Assembly: GCA_965223505.1 (NCBI GenBank)
Contig: CBDCWP010000031.1
Coordinates: forward strand, 64,001-128,000
Reading direction: 5' to 3'
Source: Planctomycetota bacterium
GTDB lineage: Bacteria > Planctomycetota > PLA2 > JAEUHO01
Length of the DNA: 64,000 bases
Shown here in pieces: positions 15,027 to 42,492 of this stretch. The translations under genes and the position numbers were made by a program. A model generated the notes under the pieces. The model was given only the letters and a program-made list of their open reading frames with translations, was not told the origin of the DNA and did not search any database. The number at the start of each line of letters is the position of its first letter. Positions within the stretch are counted from its first letter, which is position 1.

Positions 15027-15243
15027 ACGTGAACTCAGCGAGGGCGGACCTTACTGCCGCCCCACGAACCCGGCAAGGACGGCCCCGACCGCTCCACCGA
15101 CCCCCCGGCAACGTCCCGCAATCAACCCCGGCTGGTAGAGGCACCCCGCCGACGCCATGCCGTTCCTTTCGGCCTCTCGCCGGCGGCGAAATGGATTCCA
15201 GCGGATTCGGCCATTGCTGTTGTTCAGCCCGTACTACTCGATC

Positions 15244-17267: not shown

Positions 17268-17419
17268 GGTGTTCTCCCGGACAGCTGCATGCACCGTCCT
17301 AGACGCATTTGACACGCCCGCTGTTGGTCCTGCCGCGCGGAGGTCGGCAGAAAGTCCCGGCTGTGCGGCGCCTCGTCCGACCCTGTACCCTCTGGGTCGC
17401 TCTGGCGGAGAGGTGCTCG

Positions 17420-23531: not shown

Positions 23532-24875
23532 CTACGAATTGTCGGCCGCGGCGCGGATCGCGTCTCGAAGCGCCCGCTCGCTCTGCTGGCCCATCAGCCG
23601 GCGCCGGCCGATGTCGAACGTCGGCAGGCCCTTCAAACGCGCCTTGCGCGCGAGCTTGCGGTCACGCACGAGCTCCGCCGGCGGCGTCTTCTCGTTGACG
23701 AACTGCTGGAGCGCCCTCGCGTCCAGGCCCACGCGGCGGGCCGCGCGGAACACTTCGCTGCGCTTCTGCGACTTCGTCTCCATGAGCGCACGGAAGAGCT
23801 CCTCTTCCTTGCCGACCTGCCTCGCGTACATGCAAGCTCGCGCCCAGAGCGGATACTCGTCCGAAGACCAGGTGTAGATCCGCCGACGCTTGACCTCGAC
23901 GTTCAGCTCCGCGAGCACCTTGTCGAGCCTTTGGTGCGACTTGCGGCAGTGCGGGCAGTACGCATTCAGGTACTCGACGATCAGCACCCGGGGTTGCGGC
24001 TTCGGCGCCGGCTCGGGGTCCGGTTTCGGCGCCGGCGTCGTTGCCGGAGCAGGCGTCGGCGGCGGCGGCGGCTCGGGCGTGATCTCGATCGCAACGACCG
24101 GCTCGTCGGGCTCCGGGTTGACGAGCAGCGCGGCGGCCGCCTCGCTGGTTTCAGGGTCGTCGTCGTCGAGCGCCGGCGGAGGCGGTGGAGGCGGCGGTGC
24201 AGGGAGCGAGGCCGTCGATGGCTCGACCACGGCGTTCGTCGGGGACTCGAGGGCCGCCGGCGCTTCCGCCAACTTGCGCTGCGGCGAGGCCGCGCGCACG
24301 AGGATCTCGAGCGGTTCGAGGTCCTCGTCGGCCAACGGGACCGCCTCCTCGTACGTGGGCACCTCCTCTTGCGGCATCGCGAACGGCGCGACGCACACCA
24401 CGAAGCCCAGCATCGTCCAGGCGATCTTGCTGCCGATCGACTCGCGATCATGCCAGTCGTAGACCGGGCGCGACACGGCGTTCAGCACGATGATGCCGCC
24501 GCCGACGATGGCCGCCACGTCGACGACGACGCACAGCGGACAGAACGACTTCAGTACGAACGCCTGGTAGAGAAAGAGCGCCGTGCCGACGGCGACGCAA
24601 AGGCAGCCGCCTGCGGCGCGCAGCGTCCGTCCCAGTCCGCGGGACGGCAGCGTCAGCAACAGCAGGACCGCGAACGCGCTCGCCCCCAGGATCGATGTGG
24701 GGATGCCCGCTACCGATCCGAGCGGGCTCTCCGCCGCCTTGTCACACGCCTCTTCGAGTGGACAGAACGAGGGACCGGGCCGGAAGTGGTCGGCCACGAG
24801 GACCGCGCTGACGCCCAGCGCGACCAACACGGAGATTCGAGCGTAGACGATCAGCTGCGAAAGGGGGGATCGCAT
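23532..24875 (-). CDS. VKOR-family membrane oxidoreductase fused to a DsbA-like thioredoxin domain
   Basis: Loop cysteines FC.....C, G+P.S.LG, FCPLC, Pro/Glu-rich linker, EYLNAYCPHC, GLPTF cis-Pro loop. Confidence 0.88.
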   Translation of the reverse strand: MRSPLSQLIVYARISVLVALGVSAVLVADHFRPGPSFCPLEEACDKAAESPLGSVAGIPTSILGASAFAVLLLLTLPSRGLGRTLRAAGGCLCVAVGTALFLYQAFVLKSFCPLCVVVDVAAIVGGGIIVLNAVSRPVYDWHDRESIGSKIAWTMLGFVVCVAPFAMPQEEVPTYEEAVPLADEDLEPLEILVRAASPQRKLAEAPAALESPTNAVVEPSTASLPAPPPPPPPPALDDDDPETSEAAAALLVNPEPDEPVVAIEITPEPPPPPTPAPATTPAPKPDPEPAPKPQPRVLIVEYLNAYCPHCRKSHQRLDKVLAELNVEVKRRRIYTWSSDEYPLWARACMYARQVGKEEELFRALMETKSQKRSEVFRAARRVGLDARALQQFVNEKTPPAELVRDRKLARKARLKGLPTFDIGRRRLMGQQSERALRDAIRAAADNS

Positions 24876-24993
24876 GGTGATTCCAGACTTCCACGGCTGG
24901 AGCGCCTGCCGCACGCCCCTCCCAGAGCCTCCCAGGCCCGCCTCATCATCGACCGGAGGCCGATCTGAACTTGAGCTTCATCACCGAGACGCT

Positions 24994-26791: not shown

Positions 26792-27109
26792 TCAGGCGTC
26801 CCAGAGCGACGACGCGGCGACGCGCCGCCGGTCGTCGAACACGACACCCTCGGCTTCGAGGATGAGGCGCTGGAGACGCTCGCCGGCGGGATCGCCTCTG
26901 TCGCTGATCCGGCGCTGGGCGTTCACGATGCGATGCCAAGGAACGCCGGAGTCCTCGGAGAGCCGTCGAAGCGCGGCGCCGACCATCCGTGCCGTACAGC
27001 CGTGCACCTGTGCGGCGATCTGACCGTAGGTCGCGACGCGTCCTTCAGGTACGGCGCAGACGGCCTCGTGGATGCGCGCATCGAGCCACGGAAGTCGCGA
27101 CGAGCCCAT
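26792..27109 (-). CDS. atl: Alkyltransferase-like protein (MGMT family, Trp variant)
   Basis: VPEGRVATYGQIA, ARMVG.AL, PWHRIVN (Trp replaces catalytic Cys), Q...L.AEGV. Confidence 0.88.
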   Translation of the reverse strand: MGSSRLPWLDARIHEAVCAVPEGRVATYGQIAAQVHGCTARMVGAALRRLSEDSGVPWHRIVNAQRRISDRGDPAGERLQRLILEAEGVVFDDRRRVAASSLWDA

Positions 27110-27813
27110 CACCGCGGCGGATCGTGCCGGTACACGAAAAGGCGCGACTTCTGCGCGTCGCGCGTCGGCACCTCTCCTGCGGGGGCGACGAAGTCCCACT
27201 CGCCGACGTAGTTCCGGTCGCCGGTGGGCAGGAGATAGTAGATCGTCAAGGCCCGGGGATGCGCGTCGAGCGAGCTCTTGATCCGGTCCCGCACCGCGTC
27301 GATCACCGGCGGATAGAAGGGGTTGAACAGGAAGGCGATGGACATGTCGTCGGGCGGGTCGAACGTCATGGCGTTGCCGCCGACGACCTCGACGTCGTCG
27401 CACTTGCGGCCCTTGATGCGCGGGATGTTGTCCTGCGCCGTGGCGCTCAGCGCTTCGGAGAGCTCGATCCCCACGATGCGTCGAAACGGATGTTGCGCCG
27501 CCGCCGCGACGATGCGGCCCTTGCCCGATCCGTAGTCGACGAGAACGTCCTCCCCCGGGCGGATCGTCATGTGGGCGAGGGCACGGCGCACCAGCGGATA
27601 GGGGGTCGGCTCGTAGTGGGCCGAGGTGTCGTCCTGGCCGAGGTCGGCGCGATCGACATATCCCTTGGTGTGTACGCCGAGGCGCCACTCGTGAAACTCC
27701 TCGTTCAGGCGGAAGCGCGTCCAGCGCAGCGTGCTGCGAAGCCCCTGCTCCCGTGTGCGACGCACGACCTTGCCGACGAATCCGAGCACGAGCCCCTCCG
27801 AGGAGCGCGGCAT
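27109..27813 (-). CDS. Class I SAM-dependent methyltransferase
   Basis: YEPT, VDYGSGKGR, GIELS, FLFNPF. Confidence 0.85.
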   Translation of the reverse strand: MPRSSEGLVLGFVGKVVRRTREQGLRSTLRWTRFRLNEEFHEWRLGVHTKGYVDRADLGQDDTSAHYEPTPYPLVRRALAHMTIRPGEDVLVDYGSGKGRIVAAAAQHPFRRIVGIELSEALSATAQDNIPRIKGRKCDDVEVVGGNAMTFDPPDDMSIAFLFNPFYPPVIDAVRDRIKSSLDAHPRALTIYYLLPTGDRNYVGEWDFVAPAGEVPTRDAQKSRLFVYRHDPPR

Positions 27814-27828
27814 TGTAGAGGGGGTGCG

Positions 27829-28923
27829 CTACACGGTCGCTCGCGGCCGCGACGGACGACCGGACACCGGACTGTTCGAAAGCGCGGCCCGCTCGAGCTC
27901 GAGCAGCCGCTGCTTGCGCCAGACGCCGCCGCCGTATCCGGACAGCGAACCGTCCGATCGAACGACGCGGTGGCACGGAATCACGATCGCGATGCGGTTC
28001 TGACCGTTCGCCGAGCCCACGGCGCGACTCGCGCCCGGACGACCGACGTGCTCCGCCACCTCTCCGTAGCTCTGGGTCGCGCCGTACGGAATCGTTCGAA
28101 GGTGCGTCCACACGGCTTGCTGAAACGGCGTCGGCCGCGTGTCGAGCGCAACGTCGAAGGCGGTGAGTCGGCCCGCGAAATACGCCGCCAGCTCCCGCTC
28201 GACCTGTGCGAGGTGTTCGTTGCTGCCGGGCACGACCGATCGGCGGAACCGAGTGCGCACCTGCTGCAGCTCCCGCTCCAACGCGCGCCGGTCGACGAAC
28301 TCGAGCAGCACGAGACCGTGCTCGGAGGCGATGGCGATCATCGGTCCGAGCGGGCTCGAGATCCACGCTGCCGTCAGCGCCTCCTTCGAGCGCGACGCAC
28401 CGGGCGGCATGCCGAACACCTTCGCGAACGCGTCCCGGAAGCCGCTTTCGGACTCGTAGCCCGCGTCGACGCCGGCTGCCGAGATCCCTGCGCCTCGCGA
28501 GAGCGCACGCATCGCGATACCCAGCCGCCAGGCGCGCTGAAATGCCTGAAAGGTCACCCCGAAGTGCCGCACAAAGTAGCGCCGCACCGTCGCCGGGTTC
28601 AGGCCCTCTTCGATGAGCTCGCGATCGCGGATGCGGCGGTTCGGCGCACTGCCGACGCTGCGGATGAGACGAGCCGCCCACGACGGGCGGTCCGGATCCC
28701 GGTCGAGCGGACGGCACACTTTGCACGGCCGATAGCCGGCATGGAGGGCGGCCGCCGCGGTCGAAACGAACTCGACGTTCTGCGGCTTCGGCTTTCGGGC
28801 ACGGCAGACAGGACGACAGAAGATGCCGGTGGTCCGAACACACGCGAAGAACAGCCCGTCGTACGACGCGTCGCGCCGCACCAGCGCGTCGAACATCTCA
28901 GGGTCGGGCGGAAGCGTCTGCAC
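27829..28923 (-). CDS. ada: Bifunctional Ada regulator / O6-methylguanine-DNA methyltransferase
   Basis: RD..YDG.F..CV.TTGIFCRPVC, GYRPCKVC zinc site, AraC HTH, IPCHRV active site. Confidence 0.95.
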   Translation of the reverse strand: MQTLPPDPEMFDALVRRDASYDGLFFACVRTTGIFCRPVCRARKPKPQNVEFVSTAAAALHAGYRPCKVCRPLDRDPDRPSWAARLIRSVGSAPNRRIRDRELIEEGLNPATVRRYFVRHFGVTFQAFQRAWRLGIAMRALSRGAGISAAGVDAGYESESGFRDAFAKVFGMPPGASRSKEALTAAWISSPLGPMIAIASEHGLVLLEFVDRRALERELQQVRTRFRRSVVPGSNEHLAQVERELAAYFAGRLTAFDVALDTRPTPFQQAVWTHLRTIPYGATQSYGEVAEHVGRPGASRAVGSANGQNRIAIVIPCHRVVRSDGSLSGYGGGVWRKQRLLELERAALSNSPVSGRPSRPRATV

Positions 28924-28994
28924 GGCCGGAGTCTAGCGACCGGTCGAACGGCCTCCACCGCGCATCGGACGACCAATTCGGATTCCCACCGGTG

Positions 28995-30440
28995 TCATGC
29001 GCTGGAATGCTCCTCGACCCGCCGCGCCGCGGCGTTCGCCACGAGAAGTTGCCAGCGCGCGTCGTGTCGAAACAGCTTGTGTCGAATCGGCTCGCGGAAG
29101 AGCGGCAGCCACGCCCACATGAGCCGGACGAGCGAATACCCCACGCTCATTCCGAAGATGCCGAAGAGCACCGGAAATGCACTCATCCACTCGGGAAGGG
29201 GCCGGCCGATGTACCTCGTGGCCCCGACCGTCAAGCCGCCCACGAGCAGACACCCGACCAGCGCCATCAACGCGAGGTTGAGGGCGCGTACCGTGCGTTC
29301 GACCCTGGGACCGTCGATCACGGAGGCACGCACCTCGCCCTTCGGGAAGATGCGCGAGAGGATCCACGCGAAGGCGCCCAGCAGGATGTAGCTGTCAATC
29401 GCGAGCTCGGATCCCATCGCGTGCGCCATTACGACGTGCGTGCCGTGAATGAGCGCGTTGAACGGCGGGACCGAGATCAAGAGCGCCACGGGCAAGAGGA
29501 AGACGTTCCAGTGCTTGGACAGCGACAGGAAGCGCTTCGCGGCCCCGAAGGACGCGCCGAGGACCTTCGGCCGCCCGAGCTTGCCCACGATGTCTCGCAA
29601 GAGGCTCCAGAGGATGATGATCTCGAGCATGCTCACGACGAACGCGACCCACTTGACGAGATGCGACTGCGGTAGGTGGTAGGTGTGGTGCGTGTAGTTC
29701 GTGAACGAGTTCAGCAATCCCAGTCCGAACAGGGCGAATGCCGAACGTGACTGCGCCACGGAGCGGTCGCGTGAGAGGCGTTCGCCCACGTACAGCAGCG
29801 AGCCGTACACCATCTGGTTGAACGACGCGACCAGTGTCCCGCACGACTTCCACTGGATCTGGAGGTCGGCAACGGGCTGCGAGCTCACGAACGGCAGAAG
29901 GTGCGCATGGCCTTCCGCGAAGGTGTACACGAACAAGCAGGCGCCGGCGGTCCACATGTACACGTAGACGGGCCTGGACCAGAAGCCGCGCCGGACACGG
30001 CGCAGAAACGTCCAGAGGAACAAGACCCAACCGACCAAGATCGATACGGATATCAGCGGATGGAATCCGAGGTACTCCCGGCCCGAGGTGATTCCGAGCG
30101 GCAGCGTGACGATCGTCGCGATGCCTGCCAGACCCCAGCAGACCATGTGCGCCCGATACCGGCGCCGTTCGCCGCGATTCGGTTCGCCGAAGGTCTCGAA
30201 GAGGAACCAGTACATGCAAGCGACGCAGCCCAGGTAGATCCAGGCCGAGGCGAAGGTCGTGTGCAACGGTCGGATCTGGACGAGGCTGATGCCCGCGTTC
30301 GCCATCGGCCGTGAGAACGCGGGAACGTAGTACAGCGCACCGAGCGCGCCCATCAGGACGGACAGGAGCATGCAGGCGAACGCACAGGCCATCGCCACCA
30401 GCACCATGCGCTCGCCGGACTTGAAGACGGGGTCGTTCAC
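28995..30440 (-). CDS. Heme-copper oxidase superfamily subunit I, divergent NorB-like
   Basis: About 12 TM; RPLHT, GREY, HH pair (NYTHHTYH), SMLE, N...HGT....HAM; GTG start overlaps the cytochrome stop. Confidence 0.85.
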   Translation of the reverse strand: MNDPVFKSGERMVLVAMACAFACMLLSVLMGALGALYYVPAFSRPMANAGISLVQIRPLHTTFASAWIYLGCVACMYWFLFETFGEPNRGERRRYRAHMVCWGLAGIATIVTLPLGITSGREYLGFHPLISVSILVGWVLFLWTFLRRVRRGFWSRPVYVYMWTAGACLFVYTFAEGHAHLLPFVSSQPVADLQIQWKSCGTLVASFNQMVYGSLLYVGERLSRDRSVAQSRSAFALFGLGLLNSFTNYTHHTYHLPQSHLVKWVAFVVSMLEIIILWSLLRDIVGKLGRPKVLGASFGAAKRFLSLSKHWNVFLLPVALLISVPPFNALIHGTHVVMAHAMGSELAIDSYILLGAFAWILSRIFPKGEVRASVIDGPRVERTVRALNLALMALVGCLLVGGLTVGATRYIGRPLPEWMSAFPVLFGIFGMSVGYSLVRLMWAWLPLFREPIRHKLFRHDARWQLLVANAAARRVEEHSSA

Positions 30441-31204
30441 TTGTACTCGAACCACGGAAGGCCGTCCGTGGTCTCCTGCGCCTTGGGGGCGGCATCGCGA
30501 AACGACGCATGAATGGACTCCGCGTTCGCGCCCAACCAAGTCAAGAAGTCCAGGAGGTCGTCACGCTCCTGCGGAGCGAGGGCGAACCGCGGCATGCCCT
30601 TCGACGGGATCCCGTTGGCCAGCATGGCGGCGACGCCTTCGCGTCCGAGCTTCGTGATCAGGTGCGTGAGATCGGTTCCCTTGTGCTCGGCCATGGGGTT
30701 GGGGAGATGGCAGCCGATGCACTTCTGCGCGAAGAGCACGTCGCGGCCGTGCGCCTGCGCCGGGGTCATGAACACGCCGTCTTCGACCGCTCGCGACACC
30801 GCCTCTGCCAGTACCTCCGCGCCGTCGAAACCGCGATACGGCGGCAGCTGGCCGCGGCCGGTCTCGTGGACCTCGGCCAGAAACGCCTCAATTGCCCGGC
30901 GGTCTGCGTCACTCAGGTCGAACGCCGGCATCTGGCCGGCGCCGATGGTGAGGACGGTGTCGACCCGTGCGCGGGTCAGGCGTTCCGTCGCGTTGGTGAG
31001 GTCGGGCCCGAGGAACCCGCCGAATCCGTAGATCTGATGGCAGCTCTGACAGTTGTGGCGGTGCCAGACATCGCGGCCCGCGGACGCCTGACCCGACAAC
31101 GCCGCCGTCGCCCGGCCCGCGGGATCCGTGTACACCAGCCAACCTTGCAGAAAGAACACGGCCACCAGACTGACGAGGAGAACCTGGCGGGCGCGCGTGC
31201 TCAT
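30437..31204 (-). CDS. Membrane-anchored diheme cytochrome c (NorC-like N-terminal domain)
   Basis: N-terminal TM; G..VW...NCQSCH..YG.GG.LGPDLT...MP; second CIGCH...GTDLT...MP. Confidence 0.9.
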   Translation of the reverse strand: MSTRARQVLLVSLVAVFFLQGWLVYTDPAGRATAALSGQASAGRDVWHRHNCQSCHQIYGFGGFLGPDLTNATERLTRARVDTVLTIGAGQMPAFDLSDADRRAIEAFLAEVHETGRGQLPPYRGFDGAEVLAEAVSRAVEDGVFMTPAQAHGRDVLFAQKCIGCHLPNPMAEHKGTDLTHLITKLGREGVAAMLANGIPSKGMPRFALAPQERDDLLDFLTWLGANAESIHASFRDAAPKAQETTDGLPWFEYK

Positions 31205-31935
31205 CTACGTTCGGTGAGCTCCGAGTTCGTGGCGACGTAGATCGTATCCGTTTGGTCGTCGTCGATCATCGGGTTGAACACGACGATCTCGTGCGTCGCG
31301 ACGTCGGCGAACGCGGTCGAGAGCAGCCGGGTGAAGGCGTCGTTCGTCGCACCCGCCGACCACAGCGCGAACACGCCGCCCGGCGACAGCAACGCCGCCG
31401 CCGATGCCATCGCGCCGCGCTCGTAGAAGCGACCGTGCGCCGGACCCAGCCAGGCGTCGGGCGCATGGTCGATGTCCACGAGGATCGCGCCGTACCCGCC
31501 GGCGACCGCGATCTCGCTCTCCGCACCCCGGCCGACGAGCGCGAAAAAGTCGCCTTGACGCAGCGTGCAGCGTTCGTGCCCGCACAAGGACGCCCCGAGC
31601 GGAACGAGACCCGTTTGGTGCCACTCGATGACCTCCGGCAACAGATCGACGACCGTGACGCTGCGCGCGCGCTCGTCGCCGAGCGCGGCCCATGCCGTGT
31701 ACCCGAGGCCGAGCCCGCCGACCAGCACGTCGAACGGTTCATCCGGCGCGTCAGCGAGCGCAAGCAGAGAGAGCTGCTGCTCCGACTCGTTGAGCCAGCT
31801 CGACATCAACAGGTCGTCATTGAGCTTGATCTCGTAGATGGGCTCGGGGCCGAGCCCCGGCACCGTCCTGCGACGCAGCACGAGCTCGCCCAACGCGCAC
31901 TGACGGACGTCGAGCTCTTCGTAGGTGGTGCTCAT
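31201..31935 (-). CDS. Spermidine-synthase-like SAM-binding protein
   Basis: GEL.LRRR, LMSS...SE..L, VLVGGLGLGYT, ILVDIDH.P, GG.FALWS. Confidence 0.85.
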   Translation of the reverse strand: MSTTYEELDVRQCALGELVLRRRTVPGLGPEPIYEIKLNDDLLMSSWLNESEQQLSLLALADAPDEPFDVLVGGLGLGYTAWAALGDERARSVTVVDLLPEVIEWHQTGLVPLGASLCGHERCTLRQGDFFALVGRGAESEIAVAGGYGAILVDIDHAPDAWLGPAHGRFYERGAMASAAALLSPGGVFALWSAGATNDAFTRLLSTAFADVATHEIVVFNPMIDDDQTDTIYVATNSELTERR

Positions 31936-31961
31936 GGAACGCGCATCGTCGATGCGTCGGG

Positions 31962-33143
31962 TCAATTCGAGCCAGGGAAATCGAAGCCGTCCGCGCGCTT
32001 GCCCGGCGACATCGGCTTTCCCACCGCCTCCGGCAACGTGTCATGGCGGACATAGCCGCCGGGCGCGCTTGCCGGCGTCGGCTGCCAGCGGCCGTCGACG
32101 TCGTTGTTGAGACTCACGCCCGGCACGGTGCTCTGCCCGGCATACGAAACGCGGAACAGCTCCAACGCGCCGATGCGTAGGACGACGTGGTCGCCGCCGT
32201 TGTTCAGACCCAGTGTTCCGGTCGAAGCCGTCTGCGCATGTCCGGTCGCGTGGCGCGGCGCGAAGCCCGTCGGCGTTCCGGCGCCGAAGACGACGATCGA
32301 GCCACCGATGGGCAGCGTCGTCGGATTCGGAAACGCGTGTCGCAGGGTCGAGGCGTCGTGGACCGTGAGGCCGCTCAGGTCGAGGGGCCGCCGACTCACG
32401 TTGACCAGCTCGACGAACTCGTCGGACGTGGCGCTCGCAACGCCGTCGTCGTTCGCATCGACGCCGCCGGGGTTCGCGAGCAACTCGTTGACGATCAGGT
32501 CCCCGGCATCGACGGCTTCGGAGTGGAAGAGCATCGCGGACGCAGACCGAGCGCCCTGTGAGAGCACGACGTGGACATCCTCATTCACGACGATGCCGGG
32601 GGGAACACGGGCGATGAGCGTCGTCTCGCCGACCACGTCGACGGACGATGCCTCCACGCCGCCGAACGCGACCACGGGACTCTCGAGCGAACCGAATCCG
32701 CTTGCCTCGATCGTGATGCGAGTCCCACCCGAGGTTGCGTGATGACTTCCGATCCCGGGTCGAATCGAGATCCGCGGTGGGGGCGGGTCGTACGCGAAGA
32801 GGTCCGGCGCGTGTGCGGCGCGTTGATCGAGGATCACGCTCACGTTCGCAGCGCCCTCGCTGCCGGCCGGAAGCACCACCTCGATCGCTTCGTCCGACAC
32901 CACGCGGGCGGACACCCGGCGAACGCCGATGACCGCGAATGCCGTCGCCGGCGACCCGGCCGCAAGGAAGCCCTCGCCGCGAAGGACGAGCGGCGTGCCG
33001 CCGTGGACGGGGCCGGTCGAAGGTTCCACAGCGGCGAGCACCAACGGTGCGGACCCGATCGGAGGCGGTGTCGATCCACCGCACCCGGCCAGCCAGGGGA
33101 TCACAAGCAGGAGACAGGCGTAGGAGCGCAGCGAGGCGTGCAT
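31962..33143 (-). CDS. Lipoprotein with two IPT/TIG domains and a lamin-tail domain
   Basis: Lipobox LAGC; VEP..GP..GGT....G.GF; LIVNELLA.P..D.N.DG...DEFVELVN...LDLSG; LNNGGD; SPG. Confidence 0.85.
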   Translation of the reverse strand: MHASLRSYACLLLVIPWLAGCGGSTPPPIGSAPLVLAAVEPSTGPVHGGTPLVLRGEGFLAAGSPATAFAVIGVRRVSARVVSDEAIEVVLPAGSEGAANVSVILDQRAAHAPDLFAYDPPPPRISIRPGIGSHHATSGGTRITIEASGFGSLESPVVAFGGVEASSVDVVGETTLIARVPPGIVVNEDVHVVLSQGARSASAMLFHSEAVDAGDLIVNELLANPGGVDANDDGVASATSDEFVELVNVSRRPLDLSGLTVHDASTLRHAFPNPTTLPIGGSIVVFGAGTPTGFAPRHATGHAQTASTGTLGLNNGGDHVVLRIGALELFRVSYAGQSTVPGVSLNNDVDGRWQPTPASAPGGYVRHDTLPEAVGKPMSPGKRADGFDFPGSN

Positions 33144-33310
33144 GCCGTGACATCGCGCGGGTCGACGCGGGGGATACGCGTGCCGCGCGACCGGTGCGGC
33201 CGCGTCGAGAGGCCGATCTCCTCGGGCCTCGCGGATTTCCGCTGAAAACCTGCGGACCGCGTCCGCTGACCGCGCATTCCCCCGCAGACCTCGCCACCAA
33301 GGAGAATGAC

Positions 33311-34144
33311 ATGGGTACATCGATTCGACGCAAGAGCCGCGGCTTCCGGCTGGGTGCGCGCCTCCTGCAGAGCGCGCTCGTATGTGCCGCCCTACTCGTC
33401 GCCGGCTGCGGCGGCGGGGGCGGATCGTCCGGCGTCGGCGGCGCCACCGGCATCGGCTTCCTCCCGACCAGCCTCAACCAGGCGGCCTATCGCGGCGGGA
33501 ACGTCTACGAGTACGGATACCGTTCCTTCGCGAACATCGACTTCACGGGCGCACCCGCGGACACCGACTACTCGCGCTGGGCAATGCTGCACGACGGATC
33601 CACGTACCGCCTGTTCTTCGGCCGCCTCAACCGCTCGTCGATCTACCAGTTCGGTTACAACCCCGCTTCGGGGGACTACGAGTACGGCTTCAACTCGATC
33701 GACGAGATCGCGGTCACCGGCTTCCCGGCCGACGCCGACCGTTCGTCCTTCAAGATGCTCCACGACGGGGCGCGCTACCGGATCTTCATGCGCAGCCTCT
33801 CGGACCCGCGAAACCTCTATCAAGGCGCCTTCAACTCGTCCACCGGATCGTACGTGTACGGCTTCGCTTCCATCGACCGGATCAGCACGACCGGACTGCC
33901 GGCCGACGCCGACCTCTCGCGCTGGGCGATGCTGTACGACGGGAGCGTGTACCGACAGTACGTGGGAAGGGTGGGCCGGCCGGATGCGATGTATCAGTGC
34001 GGGTTCGACGGCCGCACCTACGACTTCGGCCATCGCTCGATCTCGTCGTTGTCGATCTCCGGCATGCCGGCCAGCAGTGACACGCGCAGCGTCTCGATGC
34101 TCCACGACGGAACCGACTACCGCCTCTTCCACCTGTCCGACTAG
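33311..34144 (+). CDS. Lipoprotein with four ~57-aa tandem repeats (beta-propeller-like)
   Basis: SD AAGGAG; lipobox VAGC; four copies of Y.YG..S...I..TG.P...D...W.ML(H/Y)DG..YR. Confidence 0.85.
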   Translation: MGTSIRRKSRGFRLGARLLQSALVCAALLVAGCGGGGGSSGVGGATGIGFLPTSLNQAAYRGGNVYEYGYRSFANIDFTGAPADTDYSRWAMLHDGSTYRLFFGRLNRSSIYQFGYNPASGDYEYGFNSIDEIAVTGFPADADRSSFKMLHDGARYRIFMRSLSDPRNLYQGAFNSSTGSYVYGFASIDRISTTGLPADADLSRWAMLYDGSVYRQYVGRVGRPDAMYQCGFDGRTYDFGHRSISSLSISGMPASSDTRSVSMLHDGTDYRLFHLSD

Positions 34145-34209: not shown

Positions 34210-37548
<3,339 letters not shown>

Positions 37549-37611
37549 GAAGTCAGCCTCGCAAGGAACGACGGGCGCGGCAAGCCGGTACACTCCCGGC
37601 GGGAGGCGTGT

Positions 37612-38193
37612 CTGAGCATCCAACCCGATCCCGGCGAGGTCACACGGTTGCTGCGCGCGATGCAGGCGGGCGACACGGGCGCCGCGGACGAGCTGCTTCC
37701 CGCCGTCTACGACGAGCTGCGCGGGCTGGCGCGCCGCTATTTCGCCGCCGAGCGCGCCGAGCACACGCTGCAACCCACCGCGCTCGTGCACGAGGTCTAC
37801 ATCCGCATCGCCGACCAGACCGCGAGCACCTGGAAGGACAAGGCGCACTTCCTCGGGATCGCCGCGCGCGTCATGCGGCAGATCCTCGTCGATCACGCGC
37901 GCCGCAAGAGCGCGAAGAAACGCAGCGGCAAGCGCGAGCTCGTGACGCTCGACGCGCAGCCCGACGACGAGGCGGCCTCGGCGGTGGACGTCGAAGCCGT
38001 CGACCTCGCCATCGAGAAACTGTCGTCGCTGGATGCGCGCAAGGCGCGCGTCGTCGAGCTGCGCATCTTTGCGGGCATGACGATGGAAGAGGTTGCCGAA
38101 GCCCTTGCGGTCTCCAAGCGCACCGTCGAGGGAGACTGGGCATTCGCCAGCGCGTGGTTGCGCGGCGAGCTCGAGCGCTCGAGCCAGTCCTAG
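37612..38193 (+). CDS. ECF RNA polymerase sigma factor, TIGR02999-type
   Basis: VTRLL...GD..A..EL.P.VYDELR.LA, HTLQPTALVHE.Y, MRQILVDHAR, RTV..DW.FA.AWL; start uncertain (CTG 5 nt after GGGAGG). Confidence 0.9.
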   Translation: MSIQPDPGEVTRLLRAMQAGDTGAADELLPAVYDELRGLARRYFAAERAEHTLQPTALVHEVYIRIADQTASTWKDKAHFLGIAARVMRQILVDHARRKSAKKRSGKRELVTLDAQPDDEAASAVDVEAVDLAIEKLSSLDARKARVVELRIFAGMTMEEVAEALAVSKRTVEGDWAFASAWLRGELERSSQS

Positions 38194-41100
38194 GGCGTGT
38201 ACGTGAACACCACGTCCTTCGCGCCGGACTCCGCTTCGATCTCTCCCACGGGTTCGCCCATGTAGCCCACGATCTTCCAGCGACCGGGCGGTAGGCCCTG
38301 AATCGTGAAGCGGCCGTCCTGCGTCGTGCGCGCACCGATGCGGAGCGACCCGCGCTCGGCGATCAGGAACGGTCCCTTCGTCGGCCCCTGGAAGTTCTCG
38401 ATGAGCCCCGTGATCGTCGCGCCTTGCTTCGGATGCAGCTCGAACGGGCCGTCCGAGGGACGCACGTCGTCGGCCATCGCGTAGCGGCCGTCCGCGTGCC
38501 CCGCGTAGACGACGCCCACCACGTCCGAGACGTCGTCGATCCAGAAGCGATTCCCGTCTCCCTTGTTCGCCTGCCACGTGTGTCCGGGCTTGCTGAAGCG
38601 GATGTGCCATCCGTCCAGCCCCTTCTTGTCGTGCAGGGTGCCCTCGAGCTTCGCGACGTTCGGCAGGACGAACCGCAGCCCGCGCGCGGGTGCGTCGGAC
38701 TCCTGCGGCTCGGCGCCGCCGAACCCGCCGCCTTCGGCGCGCACGGCGTAGCGCCCCGCAGCGACGGGACCGACCCGAAAGGCGCCCGCCGCGTCGGTGC
38801 GTCCGCGCGCGGACACCCCGCGGTTCGCTTTCGCCGCGCCGTAGGCGGCGACGCTCGCACCCGCGACCGGTTCGTTCGCCTCGTTCAAGACGACGCCTTC
38901 GATCCAGACCCCGGCGCCGAGTCGAATCACGAGGTCGCCGCCGAGCTCGAGCTCGCGAATCGCGTTCGGGTAGGGGGGCGTCGCCTTCACTGCGGTGACG
39001 CGTACCTTCGCGACGCCGCGCTCGGGAATTCCCTCCGCGACGAAGACACCGTCGTTGTTCGTCGCGCCGTAGCGGCTCCAGCGCGCGCCGCCGTGAACGC
39101 CCGACATCGAGACCTGCGCCTCGCGGACCGGCTCGTCGTCCGCGCCGACGACCCGAAGCTCGTGCCGGTGTCCGCGCGTGAGCGTGATGCGCACCTCGCT
39201 CTGGTCCGCGGGCACCTCGATCGCGGGGACCGGCAGGAACGCCGGCGGCGGCCGAATCGTGAGCTTCACGGTTTCGAGCGCCAACGCAGCCAGCACGAAC
39301 ACGCCCTCGTCGTTCGTCAGCGCGTACTTCTGTGCGATGAAGTCGCCCGCCTGCACGTTGACGTTGGCGACCGGCTGCCCCTCGGTGTCTCGTACGTGAC
39401 CTTCGATGCGACGTCCCTCGCGCAACCGAATCTCGCGCTCCGACGTGCCACGGGCGATGTCGAGGGTCTGCGGCAGGTAGTCGAGCGACCGTCCGTCCGC
39501 GTCCCGCACGTCGGTGACCGTGAGCTTCAGCGACTCGCCTTCTTCCGGTTGCTGCATGACCAGCGTGCCGTCGGAAACCGTCTTGTCGCCGCGAAACGTG
39601 TGGTTGCCGCGCGCGCGCTCGAACGTGACCTTCGCGGTCGGCACCGGCGCACCGTCCGGCCCCAGGATGCGAAGCGTGACGTCGGTCGTGGACCCGCCGC
39701 TGCGGACGACCGCGTGGATGTCGTCGTCCGGCGTCCACGCGCCGTCCGCCCAGTCGCTGCGGACGCGCAGGCGGTAGCGCTTCGCGGCGCCGACCTCGAC
39801 GTCGAACCGACCCTGCGCGTCCGTGATCGTGTTGCCCTCGCGGAAGTTGCGGTTGTCCGCGTTGAAGACCCAGACCGCAGACAGCGCGACGGGGGAGCCG
39901 TCCTCGCGCCGCAACACGCCGCGCAGACGCTTCTTCGACTCGACGCGCACCACGATGTCGTCGCGCTTCTCGCCCCACGCCACCTCGACATCGACCATGT
40001 GCGGGCGGATGCGGACCTTGTAGACCCCCGGCGCCAGTCCGTCGAACACGAACGAGCCGTCGGAGCCCGTCGTCATCGCGTAGTGGTAGGTCGTCATCAG
40101 CGCAGCGCCGACGCCTTCGACCGGTCGATCGTTCTCGTCGAGCACGCGCCCGGCGATGCGGGCGCCCTCGCGCAACGTCAGCGCGACTGCTTGCGGGGTT
40201 TCAATCGACGTGAGCTCGATGGGTTTCTCCGCGAGAGCGAGCTGCGTGCCCTTCCGCGCCTCGAGCGTCCATCGGAACCCGGGTGGGAGTCCGGAGAGAC
40301 GACAAGTTCCGTCCGCGGCCGTACGCAGGCCGGCCGGCCGGCGTTCGAAGAAGGCACCGCGGCTGCGTGTGTCCTTGCGCACGACGGATGCGCTCACGAC
40401 CGCATCGCCGACCGGCGTGCCGTCGGTGTCCGTCACGCGAACGTCGATGGCGGCGCCGCGCGCCGCGATCAGCTCGATCCGCGTCGTGCCACCCTCCGCG
40501 GGCGCATACACGGCAACCAGCCCGGGCGATGTGCTCTTGACGGCGCCGTCCTCCTGCTCGGGGACGTACCACCCCGCGCCGCGGCCGGTGAGCGCGTAAC
40601 GCGCGCCCGGTGTCACCACGAATCGAAACGAGCCGTCCTCGGCGCTCAGCGCGCGCTGCGCGACGTAGCGCGGGCCGTGCGCGCCGATCTGGACGCCGGC
40701 GATGGGTTCACCGTCGGCGCTTCGAACGCTGCCTTCGATCGCCGCGCCGCGCTGAAGCGTGAGGTTCGCCTCGACGACGTCGCCCGCAGCGAGCGGCCGG
40801 TCGCCGCCGCCGTACGTGCCGGTCGAGAAGCCCTCGGCGTCGACGACGATCTCCCCGAGCTTCCCGGGCGGCAATCCGTCGGCGACGTAGGCGCCGTCGT
40901 CGTCGGTCAGCGCGAGACCGGCGGCGTACAAGCCGAGCTCGCCTTCCGCGATCGGGATGGTCACACGGGCGTTCGCAATCGGCCGGCGCTTCGCGTCGAC
41001 GACCGCACCGCGTACGGTCACGCCCCGCGCTTCGAACGCCTGTAGCCGAACGTTGGCGCTCGGAACCGGGACGCGGAACTGCCGCCGAACGCGACCCCCG

Positions 41101-42407
41101 ACGTGCACATCGAGCTCCGCGACGCCGACGGGAATCGCCGCGATACGGAAGCGTCCGTCGGCGTCGGTGCGGATGCCGCGCAGATGCGGGGCGCTGCCGA
41201 TGTGCCGCTTCTGGAACGGCCCCGTCAGCATGTACGCCTCGAGCTCCGCGGCGATGCCGTTCCCCTGCGCGTCGACGACCTGCCCTTCGAGCGGCACGCC
41301 TTCGCCGACGGTCAGCACGAATTCCTGGCCGGAGAGGGTCAGCGCCTGTACGCGTCGCAGCGCGCCGACACGAGGTGCGGGCGGGCGCGCCTCGACCTCG
41401 AACACGCCGTCGACCGGCAGGTCGCGGAAGACGAAGCGACCCCGTGCGTCGGTGGTCGTGGTCCGGGCGGGGGGCGTGGACGGCGTGCTGCGCCAACGCC
41501 AGCGGGCAATCCTCAGCTTGTCGACGTTCGAGCGCTCGGGAACGCGCAACCAGACTTCGACGTCGCGCTGCGGCGCACCGCCTGCGTCGATGACCCGACC
41601 GGCCAACCGCTTGTCGCCGTGCGGCGCGGCGGCCGGCGCCGGCGTCTCCGGTTGCGGTTGCGGCCGCCCCTGAAGGACGGTCGGCGCCTCGTCGGACGCG
41701 TCGCCACCGTCCGCGACCAGTTCCTGCGCCGGCGCCGGCGACGGCGGCATCGCGTCGCTGTTCGATGCCACCTGCCACCAGACGACCGAGAGCGCCGACA
41801 CCAACACCGCCGCGGCGATGCCCCACTTCGTCTTCGACACCATGACGCCTCCTCCGGCGAGCATCGGCAGCAGCGCGAGCTGCCACGTTCGTTCGTTGCC
41901 GCCATGTCGCGTCGTGAGCTCCGTGCGCAGCTGCTGCAGCGCGCGCTTGATGCGGGAGCGCACCGTCTCGACGGGTACGCCGAGCTCACCGGCGATCTTG
42001 CGGGGAGGCTGGTTGTCGAAGAAGCGCCGCAGGATCACCATGCGGTTCGGTTCCGAGAGCGTCAGCATCGCGTCGAGCAGCTGCTTCTGCGTCTCGACGC
42101 GTTGAATCGACTCGACGGTCGACGGCGCGTCGTCGCGCCGAAGTACGCCGTGCTCGTAGCGATCACGGCGCCGCGACGCGCGTGCGGACTCACGCGCCTT
42201 GTTGCGCACGATGCCCGACAGCCAAGGACCCCAGCCCTTGCGGCGCGTCGCGGCACGCTGCCAGCCCGTGATCAGCGCTTCCTGTGCGACGTCGTCCCCG
42301 CGGTGGGCGTCGCCCACCAGCGTGCGCGCGAGCCGGCGGCACCCGTCTACCTGCGCGAGCAGGCCTTCGAGATCGAGTCCATCGAGCTTCGGCACGTTCG
42401 ACGCCAT
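38190..42407 (-). CDS. ECF sigma-70 fused to TM helix and many carboxypeptidase-regulatory-like repeats
   Basis: Region 2 DDVAQEA...WLSGIVRN, region 4 IA.ELGVPVETVRSRIKRA, TM, then repeated G.V.D..G.P...TD..G.F units; SD GTGGAGG. Confidence 0.9.
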   Translation of the reverse strand: MASNVPKLDGLDLEGLLAQVDGCRRLARTLVGDAHRGDDVAQEALITGWQRAATRRKGWGPWLSGIVRNKARESARASRRRDRYEHGVLRRDDAPSTVESIQRVETQKQLLDAMLTLSEPNRMVILRRFFDNQPPRKIAGELGVPVETVRSRIKRALQQLRTELTTRHGGNERTWQLALLPMLAGGGVMVSKTKWGIAAAVLVSALSVVWWQVASNSDAMPPSPAPAQELVADGGDASDEAPTVLQGRPQPQPETPAPAAAPHGDKRLAGRVIDAGGAPQRDVEVWLRVPERSNVDKLRIARWRWRSTPSTPPARTTTTDARGRFVFRDLPVDGVFEVEARPPAPRVGALRRVQALTLSGQEFVLTVGEGVPLEGQVVDAQGNGIAAELEAYMLTGPFQKRHIGSAPHLRGIRTDADGRFRIAAIPVGVAELDVHVGGRVRRQFRVPVPSANVRLQAFEARGVTVRGAVVDAKRRPIANARVTIPIAEGELGLYAAGLALTDDDGAYVADGLPPGKLGEIVVDAEGFSTGTYGGGDRPLAAGDVVEANLTLQRGAAIEGSVRSADGEPIAGVQIGAHGPRYVAQRALSAEDGSFRFVVTPGARYALTGRGAGWYVPEQEDGAVKSTSPGLVAVYAPAEGGTTRIELIAARGAAIDVRVTDTDGTPVGDAVVSASVVRKDTRSRGAFFERRPAGLRTAADGTCRLSGLPPGFRWTLEARKGTQLALAEKPIELTSIETPQAVALTLREGARIAGRVLDENDRPVEGVGAALMTTYHYAMTTGSDGSFVFDGLAPGVYKVRIRPHMVDVEVAWGEKRDDIVVRVESKKRLRGVLRREDGSPVALSAVWVFNADNRNFREGNTITDAQGRFDVEVGAAKRYRLRVRSDWADGAWTPDDDIHAVVRSGGSTTDVTLRILGPDGAPVPTAKVTFERARGNHTFRGDKTVSDGTLVMQQPEEGESLKLTVTDVRDADGRSLDYLPQTLDIARGTSEREIRLREGRRIEGHVRDTEGQPVANVNVQAGDFIAQKYALTNDEGVFVLAALALETVKLTIRPPPAFLPVPAIEVPADQSEVRITLTRGHRHELRVVGADDEPVREAQVSMSGVHGGARWSRYGATNNDGVFVAEGIPERGVAKVRVTAVKATPPYPNAIRELELGGDLVIRLGAGVWIEGVVLNEANEPVAGASVAAYGAAKANRGVSARGRTDAAGAFRVGPVAAGRYAVRAEGGGFGGAEPQESDAPARGLRFVLPNVAKLEGTLHDKKGLDGWHIRFSKPGHTWQANKGDGNRFWIDDVSDVVGVVYAGHADGRYAMADDVRPSDGPFELHPKQGATITGLIENFQGPTKGPFLIAERGSLRIGARTTQDGRFTIQGLPPGRWKIVGYMGEPVGEIEAESGAKDVVFTYTP

Positions 42408-42425
42408 TTGCCTCCACCTTGATCG

Positions 42426-42451
42426 TGGCCGCTCGAGGCAAAAGCGGTTCG
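42426..42451 (-). promoter_or_regulatory. Putative ECF promoter upstream of the sigma fusion
   Basis: Minus strand CGAACCG-N5-GCCTCG-N2-CGGCCA, same blocks and spacing as 46304-46329. Confidence 0.6.
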
Positions 42452-42492
42452 TCCAGACTATGCTCAACCCGATGCCGTAAGGGAGCCCGAAG

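What the first reader, a model, noticed from the sequence alone, without database searches (positions are those of the whole stretch)
28995..31204. NorBC-like heme-copper enzyme with rewired metal ligands
Seen, by eye alignment to cNOR NorB and cbb3 CcoN: the helix II His (RPLHT), GREY, the HH pair, the SxLE Glu and the high-spin heme His are kept. The helix VI metal-ligand His (HLWVEG in NorB, QWWYGH in CcoN) is absent, reading DLQIQWKSCGTLVASFNQ. The HxH heme motif is H-A-M, implying His/Met ligation of the low-spin heme. The partner is a diheme rather than monoheme NorC-like cytochrome, and no norQ/norD or other denitrification genes are adjacent. Known: ligand substitutions define non-canonical heme-copper families (alternative NO reductases, putative NO dismutase). 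Inference: non-standard chemistry or a poorly characterised family. It may belong to an already named family; I cannot tell without a tree.
Basis: partly seen in the sequence, partly recalled or inferred. Interest (0 to 1): 0.75.

Follow-up and report, generated by a model that had tools for sequence, protein, structure and literature searches.

The report
Lysine-for-histidine relative of nitric oxide reductase
Two overlapping genes encode a membrane haem enzyme related to bacterial nitric oxide reductase in which one metal-binding histidine and one haem-binding histidine are replaced; it belongs to a family already named in print as a possible nitrous oxide reductase, whose chemistry has never been tested.

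Summary
Window 28995-30440(-) encodes a 481-aa haem-copper-superfamily subunit I. Window 30437-31204(-) encodes its membrane-anchored dihaem cytochrome c; the two genes overlap by 4 nt.

Alignments to real cNOR and cbb3 sequences agree. His60, GREY, His251/His252, Glu273 and His340 are kept. The helix VI metal-ligand His position is Gly201. The second low-spin-haem His is Met342.

New here:
- An invariant Lys198 sits one helical turn before Gly201.
- Cys200 is clade-specific, not a general feature.
- A sister clade carries His198/Asp201/Ala273 instead.

In a tree the family is its own clade, apart from cNOR+qNOR and cbb3. It very probably equals the "N2Ored" family of Murali et al. 2024 (PNAS). 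That match rests on one genome, by elimination, and on shared taxa. No accession match was found.

No norQ, norD, nir or nos gene lies in the window or in 80 related loci.

Likely function: a cytochrome-c-fed reductase of a small nitrogen oxide. I favour NO over N2O. This is unproven.

Verdict: a real, unusual enzyme and a new member of a named but uncharacterised family. Interest is moderate.

The parts
28995..30440 (-). Catalytic subunit: 481-aa haem-copper-superfamily subunit I, cNOR/cbb3-like, 12 core transmembrane helices plus a C-terminal helix. The ORF as listed runs up to 30539.
   Evidence: ORF; start codon and overlap; Pfam COX1 58 bits; AF2 model; Foldseek top hits NorB and CcoN
30437..31204 (-). 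Electron-entry subunit: 255-aa cytochrome c with an N-terminal membrane anchor, a NorC/CcoO-like first haem domain (CQSCH at residue 52) and a second c-type domain (CIGCH at residue 162)
   Evidence: Two Cytochrome_CBB3 stretches. S. meliloti NorC finds this gene by tblastn in 70 of 80 related loci. Two CxxCH in 77 of 85 ORFs of the cluster. It lies upstream of the HCO gene in all 78 sources where both were found.
30437..30440 (-). GTGA overlap of the cytochrome c stop codon and the HCO start codon (translational coupling inferred)
30261..30263 (-). His60 codon (RPLHT, helix II): first axial ligand of the low-spin haem
   Evidence: Aligned with the helix II His of cNOR, qNOR, cbb3, A and B references; His in 312 of 314
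30075..30077 (-). Glu122 codon (GREY loop between helices III and IV)
   Evidence: Aligned with GREF (cNOR) and SREY/SKEY (cbb3); Glu in 312 of 314. Its Ca2+-site role in cNOR is recalled, not tested.
29838..29849 (-). K198-S-C200-G201 on helix VI. Gly201 occupies the canonical CuB/FeB His position. Lys198 lies one turn nearer the periplasm.
   Evidence: Alignments; Lys in 314 of 336 family sequences, and Gly201 in 313 of those 314; helix 189-223 is continuous in the model
29817..29819 (-). Asn208 codon, invariant, on the same helix face, at or next to the position of the second helix VI Glu of cNOR
   Evidence: Asn in 314 of 314; alignment
29685..29690 (-). His251-His252 codons (end of helix VII): the two retained ligands of the non-haem metal
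   Evidence: Aligned with HH of all references; His in 311 and 312 of 314
29622..29624 (-). Glu273 codon (SMLE, helix VIII), counterpart of the cNOR SxLE Glu
   Evidence: Glu in 312 of 314; Ala in 18 of 19 sister-clade sequences
29415..29423 (-). H340-A341-M342 on helix X. His340 is the proximal ligand of the high-spin haem. Met342 replaces the second low-spin-haem His.
   Evidence: Aligned with HGH (cNOR), HAH (qNOR), HVH (cbb3) and HFH (A, B); Met in 308 of 314 and in 19 of 19 sister-clade sequences

Best explanation
The two genes encode a two-subunit, cytochrome-c-dependent membrane reductase of the haem-copper oxidoreductase superfamily. It belongs to the clade that Murali et al. 2024 call 'N2Ored', a third lineage beside cNOR/qNOR and cbb3.

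Shown:
- The fold.
- The conserved two-gene module.
- Which residues are kept and which are replaced.
- The clade position.

Inferred electron path: a periplasmic donor reduces the two c haems of the anchored subunit. Electrons then pass to a low-spin haem b held by His60 and Met342. His/Met ligation should raise its potential; the paper estimates about 150 mV for the same change in nNOR. From there they reach the high-spin haem on His340.

Inferred active site: the non-haem site beside that haem has been rebuilt. The helix VI His and the cNOR ligand Glu are gone (Gly201, Ala205). What remains is His251, His252 and Glu273, a 2-His-1-carboxylate set. Invariant Lys198 sits one turn above the vacated position, and Gly201 makes room for its side chain. 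I take Lys198 to be either a fourth ligand or the charge and proton donor of that site.

Substrate (my estimates): a small nitrogen oxide.
- NO reduced to N2O by a stand-alone scavenging enzyme: about 0.4.
- N2O: about 0.25.
- O2 or peroxide: about 0.15.
- Something else: about 0.2.
For: Fold and kinship:
- Pfam COX1.
- AF2 model with pLDDT 89.
- Foldseek top hits are cNOR NorB, TM 0.77-0.83.
- The sister-clade profile hits NorB 4xyd_A at E 1.6e-12 and 3o0r_B at E 1.7e-10, and nothing else at E<=10.
- hhalign of the window's clade against four cNORs: probability 96.6, E 5.4e-10.

Clade (tree of 74 rows):
- Lysine type, 49 rows, is one clade (support 96).
- With the histidine type, 13 rows, support is 98.
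- Both are separate from cNOR+qNOR (99) and cbb3 (99).

Residues: and the counts.

Two-subunit unit:
- 4-nt overlap.
- Cytochrome c found beside the HCO gene in 78 of 80 loci and upstream in all 78 sources holding both.
- Four fused HCO-cytochrome c proteins among the representatives.

Three-site swap between sister clades, Lys198/Gly201/Glu273 against His198/Asp201/Ala273. It argues that these positions belong to one site.

Family name:
- L064 comes from MAG isolate SZUA-318 and encodes a lysine-type protein with its cytochrome c.
- That protein has no NCBIfam hit, so it is not CcoN.
- Dataset S6 lists that genome with A 1, C 1, eNOR 1, N2Ored 1.
- Taxa agree: Planctomycetota, Gemmatimonadota, Bacteroidota, Gammaproteobacteria.

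NO favoured:
- The nearest characterised relatives are NO reductases.
- The paper reports the tyrosine-less families tested so far as NO reductases, and cites a 2-His-1-Glu myoglobin model with NOR activity.
Against: - No activity, metal content or spectrum is known for any member. Literature searches found no characterisation.
- I had no model coordinates. That Lys198 reaches the site is inferred from helix periodicity and covariation, not measured.
- hhalign against cNOR opens a 9-column gap in helix VI and there places the cNOR His opposite Asp192. Local alignment is therefore not unanimous, although no alignment supplies a His.
- No accession match was found to the 11 N2Ored representatives of Dataset S4, among the accession numbers that the three look-ups of 30 proteins returned. 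Many proteins returned none, including all 10 asked about.
- The paper's main text calls gNOR the first family to replace an active-site His. That sits badly with this family being theirs, or the statement is loose.
- Absence of norQ/norD nearby does not show that they are absent from the genome.
- The module is not linked to any nitrogen-oxide gene in 80 loci, so context gives no substrate clue.
Confidence: 0.6

Rival explanations
1. It is a membrane-bound, NosZ-independent nitrous oxide reductase, as Murali et al. suggest for the family. N2O would be reduced to N2 at the haem/rebuilt non-haem site with electrons from cytochrome c.
For: The paper proposes this, citing the sulfide- and acetylene-insensitive, membrane-bound N2O reductase of Flexibacter canadensis. 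Dataset S6 lists Solitalea canadensis with N2Ored 1, and S. longa and S. koreensis with 0. That S. canadensis is the renamed Flexibacter canadensis is recalled. The His/Met haem fits a high-potential acceptor (inference).
Against: - S. canadensis also has nosZ and nosD in Dataset S8, as does SZUA-318. An extra reductase is therefore not required by genome content.
- No nos or other N-oxide genes lie near the module in 80 loci.
- No haem/non-haem-iron enzyme is known to reduce N2O (recalled).
- The authors give no experiment for this family in the text I read.
Confidence: 0.22
2. The distal pocket holds no second metal. The Lys198 ammonium group stands in for the lost cation, and the enzyme uses the high-spin haem alone, for example for O2, peroxide or NO handling at low rates, or as a sensor.
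For: Both cNOR ligands on helix VI (His and Glu) are gone. No norQ/norD relative is in the window or in 80 loci; that these insert FeB in cNOR is recalled. Many host genomes in Dataset S6 carry only A-family oxidases besides this enzyme.
Against: His251, His252 and Glu273 remain almost invariant: 311, 312 and 312 of 314. That is hard to explain without a metal or an equally demanding role. The sister clade has three or four His plus Asp, which looks like a metal site. qNORs work without NorQ/NorD (recalled).
Confidence: 0.15
3. It is a separate, unnamed family that only resembles the published N2Ored family in taxonomy.
For: No accession-level match among those returned. The paper's remark that active-site histidines are conserved in all families but gNOR. 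SI Appendix and Dataset S2, which would show the family's residues, could not be read.
Against: - The SZUA-318 genome inventory leaves only the N2Ored slot for L064's protein.
- The Flavipsychrobacter member P0372 scores 32.9 bits against ccoN (cut-off 583), and that genus is listed only with A, C, N2Ored and, in one listed row, cNOR.
- The whole-library profile search found only 383 representative clusters at E<=0.001, forming one graded family.
Confidence: 0.1
4. It is a decaying or non-functional copy of cNOR or cbb3.
For: Loss of two canonical ligands.
Against: - The substitutions are fixed, not scattered: Lys198 in 314 sequences, Gly201 in 313 of 314, Met342 in 308 of 314.
- They occur across several phyla.
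- Both reading frames are intact and coupled.
- The model is confident.
Confidence: 0.02

Closest known systems
'N2Ored' family of the haem-copper superfamily (Murali et al., PNAS 2024, PMC11214002)
   Same: - Described as closely related to cNOR, within the C-family branch, and lacking the active-site Tyr.
- Same phyla.
- One shared genome, SZUA-318, where the window's type is the only candidate for that label.
   Different: Nothing shown to differ. The paper's main text gives no residues for this family. Lys198/Gly201, His/Met ligation, the dihaem partner and the two sub-types are described here from my own alignments. Whether the SI Appendix already has them I could not see.
cNOR (NorB/NorC), e.g. 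PDB 3o0r and 4xyd
   Same: - Best structural match.
- Only significant sequence-profile match in the PDB, through the sister clade.
- Shared: helix II His, GREY/GREF loop, HH pair, SxLE Glu, proximal His, an anchored NorC-like haem c domain, no cross-linked Tyr.
   Different: - Helix VI His is Gly201, and the ligand Glu is Ala205 or a gap.
- Lys198 is new.
- Second low-spin ligand is Met, not His.
- Partner has two c haems.
- No norQ/norD nearby.
- Separate clade in the tree.
cbb3 oxidase subunit CcoN, e.g. PDB 3mk7
   Same: Shares RPLHT, the D-x-x-x-Q-W lead-in to the ligand position on helix VI, and cytochrome c partners. TM-score 0.76-0.80.
   Different: - TIGR00780 scores 18.8 bits against a cut-off of 583.
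- No CuB His on helix VI.
- Ser245 stands where the alignment puts the cbb3 helix VII Tyr (its cross-link role is recalled).
- Has the cNOR-type Glu273, which cbb3 lacks.
- No CcoO, CcoP or CcoG relatives nearby.
nNOR
   Same: Low-spin haem read as His/Met ligated (paper text).
   Different: nNOR is related to the B-family, has CuA-type partners and keeps cNOR-like active-site residues. The window enzyme is in the C/cNOR branch with a cytochrome c partner. No nNOR sequence was on hand for the tree.
gNOR and NOD
   Same: Other superfamily members with one active-site His replaced: Asp in gNOR, Asn in NOD (recalled). The sister clade here has Asp at the old His position.
   Different: gNOR is B-family-related with a cupredoxin partner. 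NOD is a qNOR derivative of about 750-800 aa (recalled). The window protein is 481 aa and branches apart from the two qNOR-like references. No NOD or gNOR sequence was in the tree.

Membership tests
Haem-copper oxidoreductase superfamily, subunit I | Twelve-helix COX1 fold | tested here: met
   Pfam PF00115 at 58 bits against a cut-off of 34.8; AF2 helices; Foldseek E 2.5e-9 and 5.6e-9 to NorB 4xyd_A and 3o0r_B, 6.8e-9 and 1.5e-8 to cbb3 CcoN 8smr_E and 3mk7_A
Haem-copper oxidoreductase superfamily, subunit I | Six canonical His: two for the low-spin haem, one for the high-spin haem, three for CuB/FeB | tested here: not met
   Four of six are present (His60, His251, His252, His340). The helix VI ligand position is Gly201 and the second low-spin ligand is Met342.
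cNOR | FeB site of three His plus Glu on helix VI (HLWVEG) | tested here: not met
   KSCGTLV-A aligns with YVVHLWVEG of four cNORs; profile alignments agree
cNOR | SxLE Glu on helix VIII and GRE(F/Y) loop | tested here: met
   Glu273 and Glu122
cNOR | Monohaem NorC partner; norQ/norD accessory genes in the cluster | tested here: not met
   Partner has two CxxCH. NorQ and NorD queries hit 0 of 80 loci and not the window.
cNOR | Branches within the cNOR clade | tested here: not met
   cNOR+qNOR form a clade (support 99) that excludes the window's family (quick search, 12 references)
cbb3 oxidase (C-family) | Reaches the curated CcoN model score; CuB His on helix VI; Tyr on helix VII | tested here: not met
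   18.8 bits against 583.15; Gly201 and Ser245 at those positions
N2Ored (Murali et al. 2024) | Clade close to cNOR in the C-family branch, without the active-site Tyr | tested here: met
   Tree; profile hit to NorB; no Tyr at the cbb3 helix VII position. In the A and B references the helix VI block is not reliably aligned, so their Tyr position was not tested. Paper text.
N2Ored (Murali et al. 2024) | Assigned to the family by the authors' HMM or tree | tested here: inconclusive
   By elimination in one genome (SZUA-318) and by matching taxa. No match to the 11 listed accessions among the accession numbers that the look-ups of 30 proteins returned. The authors' HMM, alignment (Dataset S2) and SI Appendix were not readable.
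N2Ored (Murali et al. 2024) | N2O reductase activity | not testable with these tools
   No experiment in the text read. It is a suggestion from the Flexibacter canadensis literature.
nNOR / eNOR / sNOR / gNOR / bNOR | B-family descent with a CuA-type (cupredoxin) second subunit | tested here: not met
   The partner is a c-type cytochrome. The window protein groups with the C/cNOR branch against the A and B outgroup, support 99. No sequences of these five families were in the tree.

The most novel reading that the evidence does not exclude
Lys198, with Gly201 making room, is a first-sphere part of the binuclear centre. It could be a direct amine ligand, a carbamylated carboxylate-type ligand that replaces both the lost His and the lost Glu, or a stand-in for the metal itself.

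That would make this the first haem-copper-superfamily enzyme with a lysine-built active site. With it, the family would reduce N2O without copper or NosZ. That would be an unrecognised N2O sink in aerobic Planctomycetota, Gemmatimonadota and Bacteroidota.
Probability: 0.12. Interest if true: 0.9.

Novelty: new member of a known kind. Interest (0 to 1): 0.55.

Why it matters
Enzymes of this superfamily make or consume NO, N2O and O2, so an uncharacterised branch bears on greenhouse-gas budgets.

This branch is widespread:
- 383 representative clusters in 1.84 billion proteins.
- 165 species-level genome loci.
- 293 GTDB genomes and 597 metagenome hits in the paper's Table 1.

If it reduces N2O, it is a NosZ-independent sink. 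If it reduces NO, many bacteria now scored as non-denitrifying are N2O sources.

For enzymology it offers a natural experiment. Two sister clades build the non-haem site differently: Lys/Gly/Glu against His/Asp/Ala. Both have a His/Met low-spin haem.

Annotation pipelines call these proteins 'cbb3-type cytochrome c oxidase subunit I' or 'nitric oxide reductase subunit B'. Neither name is justified by the residues.

Tried and rejected
1. Single-sequence phmmer against PDB sequences found no oxidase. A profile was needed.

2. Accession link to the paper's 11 N2Ored representatives. Three cluster look-ups of 30 proteins gave no match among the accession numbers returned. All 10 proteins asked about returned no accession.

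3. EGHAH as a relocated ligand: rejected. It lies at the end of helix V, in an insertion relative to cNOR. His178 is His in 165 and Asn in 133 of 314. Glu176 is invariant and unexplained.

4. Cys200 as a key residue: rejected as a family feature. It occurs in 128 of 314.

5. hhalign of the window's clade against four cNORs gave a 9-column gap inside helix VI. I set this local placement aside for two reasons:
- The model shows one continuous helix 189-223.
- HMMER and MAFFT alignments are anchored by the shared Asp and Trp.

6. Conserved neighbours. None beyond the two genes.
- The next five clusters are overlapping-frame shadows of the two genes.
- The best real neighbour occurs in 9 of 81 sources.
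- Those tested were asparaginase, an M20 peptidase, a histidine kinase, a sigma-54 activator and a solute symporter.

7. FNR-type box upstream of the cytochrome c gene. One mismatch or fewer in 3 of 75 loci against 1 of 375 control pieces. Two or fewer in 9 of 75 against 28 of 375. Too few to claim regulation.

8. Promoter and terminator consensus scan of 27700-33600: none found.

9. Distances in the model: not possible, because coordinates are not given to scripts.

10. No complex prediction was run. Synteny, overlap, fusions and NorC homology already make the pairing likely.

Full report
**What is at the coordinates.** Two co-oriented ORFs lie on the minus strand. The first is 30437-31204, 255 aa. 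The second is 28995-30539, a 514-aa ORF.
- The second most likely starts at GTG 30440. That gives the 481-aa protein the protein database holds for this window (P0001).
- It also gives a GTGA overlap with the stop codon of the first gene.
- Residue numbers below follow the 481-aa form. Their codons were checked against the DNA.

**Identity of the large protein.**
- Pfam places it in COX1 (E 9.9e-16, 58 bits).
- NCBIfam gives only traces of CcoN: 18.8 bits against a cut-off of 583.
- A single-sequence search of PDB sequences finds no oxidase.
- An AlphaFold2 model built on 21 relatives is confident: pLDDT 89, pTM 0.89. It shows the twelve helices of subunit I plus a C-terminal helix.
- Foldseek ranks cNOR NorB first (4xyd_A and 3o0r_B, TM 0.77-0.83). 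Next come cbb3 CcoN (0.74-0.80), then B- and A-type oxidases and qNOR.

**The residues.** I aligned the protein with real references in three ways.

1. A profile of 21 family members aligns end to end with cbb3 3mk7_A, though weakly (E 0.05).
   - RPLHT pairs with RPLHT.
   - DLQIQWKSCG pairs with DAMVQWWYGH.
   - HAM pairs with HVH.

2. A profile of the sister clade hits only NorB in the PDB: 4xyd_A at E 1.6e-12 and 3o0r_B at E 1.7e-10. hhalign ties that clade to the window's clade at probability 100, E 6.5e-55.

3. MAFFT L-INS-i of 62 family members with 12 references taken from named plasmid records. The references are four cNOR, two qNOR-like, three cbb3 or cbb3-like, two A-type and one B-type.

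All three agree on the following:
- His60 is the helix II haem ligand.
- Glu122 sits in the GRE(Y/F) loop.
- His251/His252 are the helix VII pair.
- Glu273 matches the cNOR SxLE Glu, which cbb3 lacks.
- His340 is the proximal ligand of the high-spin haem.
- Met342 stands where every reference has the second low-spin-haem His.
- Gly201 stands where cNOR and cbb3 have the helix VI metal ligand.
- The cNOR ligand Glu four residues later has no counterpart (Ala205 or a gap).

One comparison differs locally. hhalign against four cNORs (probability 96.6) opens a nine-column gap inside helix VI. I discount that placement for two reasons. The model shows one unbroken helix 189-223. The other alignments are anchored by the shared Asp192 and Trp197. 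No alignment supplies a His.

The residue numbers of P. aeruginosa cNOR and P. stutzeri cbb3 that I had in mind while reading these alignments are recalled from the structure papers, not taken from a call.

**What is conserved.** This sample is biased towards relatives of the window protein and of one Flavobacteriales member.
- Position 198 is Lys in 314, His in 19 and other in 3.
- Within the lysine type: Gly201 in 313 of 314, Asn208 in 314, Glu176 in 314, Glu273 in 312, His251 in 311, His252 in 312, His340 in 311, Met342 in 308.
- Position 200, Cys in the window, is Asn in 129, Cys in 128 and Tyr in 39. It is a clade mark, not a catalytic constant.
- His178 of EGHAH is His in 165 and Asn in 133. 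It lies at the periplasmic end of helix V, so it is not a relocated ligand.
- The histidine type reads His198, Asp201 (18 of 19), HHH on helix VII (third His in 15 of 19) and Ala273 (18 of 19). It keeps Met342 in 19 of 19.

The two clades therefore differ by a coupled three-site swap. I take that as evidence that positions 198, 201 and 273 belong to one site. Lys198 lies three residues, one helical turn, before the vacated ligand position and on the same helix face.

**The partner and the unit.**
- The 255-aa protein has an N-terminal hydrophobic anchor and two CxxCH motifs (residues 52 and 162).
- It has two Cytochrome_CBB3 domains.
- S. meliloti NorC finds its first domain by tblastn in 70 of 80 related loci.
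- A scan of one genome per species returned 165 loci, of which the best 80 were kept.
- The window's cytochrome c and HCO proteins each find a counterpart in 78 of those 80.
- The cytochrome gene lies upstream in all 78 sources that hold both.
- Four representatives are single proteins of 788-824 aa with the HCO domain followed by FixO or cytochrome c domains.
- No other neighbour is conserved. After five clusters of overlapping-frame shadows, the best real one occurs in 9 of 81 sources.
- Queries for NorE, NorQ, NorD, NirK, NnrS, NosZ, NosD, NosL, CcoO, CcoP, CcoG, CcoI, HemN and Hmp gave almost nothing. NorE hit one locus, CcoI hit one locus, and the rest hit none in 894 kb plus the window.
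- Pfam on 32 window ORFs shows no other respiratory gene.

**Where it sits in the superfamily.**
- A whole-library profile search found only 383 representative clusters at E<=0.001 among 1.84 billion. The family is sharply bounded.
- In a maximum-likelihood tree of 74 rows (quick search, SH-aLRT support only), the lysine type (49 rows) is one clade (96). The histidine type (13 rows) is one clade (100).
- Together they form a clade (98). It is distinct from cNOR+qNOR (99) and from cbb3 (99).
- The order of these three is unresolved. A- and B-type sequences lie outside.
- I left out of the tree the truncated or aberrant representatives (for example P0165, P0205, P0206, P0209, P0238, P0167) and the fused forms.
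- No NOD, eNOR, sNOR, gNOR, nNOR or bNOR sequences were available.

**Is it already named?** Murali et al. [quoted passage not shown]
- What I read of it: abstract, sections 5 and 7, the reference list part 1, passages by search, Datasets S1 and S5 whole, and parts and searches of S4, S6 and S8.
- What I could not read: the SI Appendix, S2 and S3.
- They place the family in the C-family branch.
- Their Dataset S6 lists it in Bacteroidota, Planctomycetota (UBA1135, Phycisphaerales), Gemmatimonadota and some Proteobacteria. My relatives come from the same groups.

One genome links the two sets. Locus L064 is from MAG isolate SZUA-318. It carries a lysine-type gene with its dihaem cytochrome c and has no NCBIfam match. 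Dataset S6 lists g__SZUA-318 with exactly A 1, C 1, eNOR 1 and N2Ored 1. By elimination this protein is their N2Ored.

The same logic holds for a Flavipsychrobacter member (32.9 bits to ccoN). That genus is listed only with A, C, N2Ored and, in one listed row, cNOR.

Against this:
- None of the 11 listed accessions turned up among the accession numbers that three look-ups of 30 proteins returned.
- The main text says gNOR is the first family to replace an active-site His.
- The main text mentions lysine and methionine only for eNOR and nNOR. The residues described here are therefore not in the text I could read.

I put the identity at about 0.85-0.9.

**Function.** Nothing is measured for any member. 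Five literature searches found no characterisation.

The N2O idea rests on Flexibacter canadensis. Solitalea canadensis, which I recall to be the same organism renamed, has the family while two congeners lack it. But it also has nosZ, nosD, qNOR, nirK and nap.

I favour NO for four reasons:
- The closest characterised relatives are NO reductases.
- The paper reports the tyrosine-less families tested so far as NO reductases.
- The retained His251/His252/Glu273 set resembles the 2-His-1-Glu model that the paper cites as NOR-active.
- The module stands alone in largely aerobic lineages that often carry only A-type oxidases besides it. That fits scavenging rather than a respiratory pathway.

His/Met ligation should raise the low-spin haem potential; the paper estimates about 150 mV for nNOR. 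All of this is inference.

**Verdict.** It is a new member of a family that has a name but no biochemistry. The points added here:
- Lys198/Gly201 in place of the ligand His.
- The sister clade with His/Asp/Ala.
- A His/Met haem across both clades.
- A strict two-gene unit with occasional fusion.
- No link to denitrification genes.

Noticed in passing
related proteins P0240-P0273, P0284 (not in the window): A sister clade (Gammaproteobacteria and Opitutales by source names) reads QWH-x-x-D, HHH and Ala where the window's clade has QWK-x-x-G, HH and Glu273. It keeps the H-A-M motif. Its profile hits cNOR NorB far better than the window's clade does.
   Followed up: partly
related proteins P0160, P0175, P0200, P0201: Single proteins of 788-824 aa fuse the HCO domain to C-terminal FixO and cytochrome c domains. 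The order is the reverse of the gene order in the window.
   Followed up: partly
window 31201-31965 (-) and 31962-33320 (-): A 254-aa ORF has only a weak aminopropyltransferase-like hit. It overlaps the cytochrome c start by ATGA. The TIG/LTD-domain ORF upstream overlaps it by TTGA, so four genes may be chained. Neither upstream ORF has a counterpart in the 80 related loci. The start codons are unverified.
   Followed up: partly
window 29913-29915 (Glu176) and 29865-29867 (Asp192): Glu176 at the periplasmic end of helix V is invariant in both clades (314 of 314 and 19 of 19). It lies in an insertion that cNOR lacks. Asp192 (Asp or Glu) aligns with a conserved Asp of cNOR and cbb3. Their roles are unexplained.
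   Followed up: partly
loci such as L036:2850-5237 and L009:4846-8103: A HAMP histidine kinase (9 of 81 sources) and a sigma-54-dependent response regulator (7 of 81) recur near the module in a subset of genomes.
   Followed up: partly
window 15157-16065 (+) and 17309-20332 (+): A TIR-domain protein and a 1007-aa CHAT-domain protein lie about 1.2 kb apart, with one ORF on the opposite strand between them. This may be a defence or signalling pair.
   Followed up: no
window 38190-42467 (-), 43011-46286 (-), 3299-6259 (-): Very large proteins made of repeated CarboxypepD_reg domains. Two of them have sigma-70 region 2 and 4 domains at the N-terminus.
   Followed up: no
window 34210-39978 (-): A long ORF holds a Ser/Thr protein kinase domain and a C-terminal FGE-sulfatase domain. 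Its N-terminal third is probably not coding, since it overlaps 38190-42467.
   Followed up: no
window 23532-24914 (-) and 27829-28923 (-): A VKOR-DsbA fusion with a proline-rich linker. A full-length Ada (methylphosphotriester and O6-methylguanine methyltransferase) gene starts 72 nt downstream of the HCO gene.
   Followed up: no
window-wide, e.g. 26989-29391 (+), 29395-30510 (-): At 66-74% G+C, long open frames appear on the wrong strand or frame across real genes. Such shadow ORFs of the two genes formed five of the seven largest 'conserved' clusters in the neighbour analysis.
   Followed up: yes
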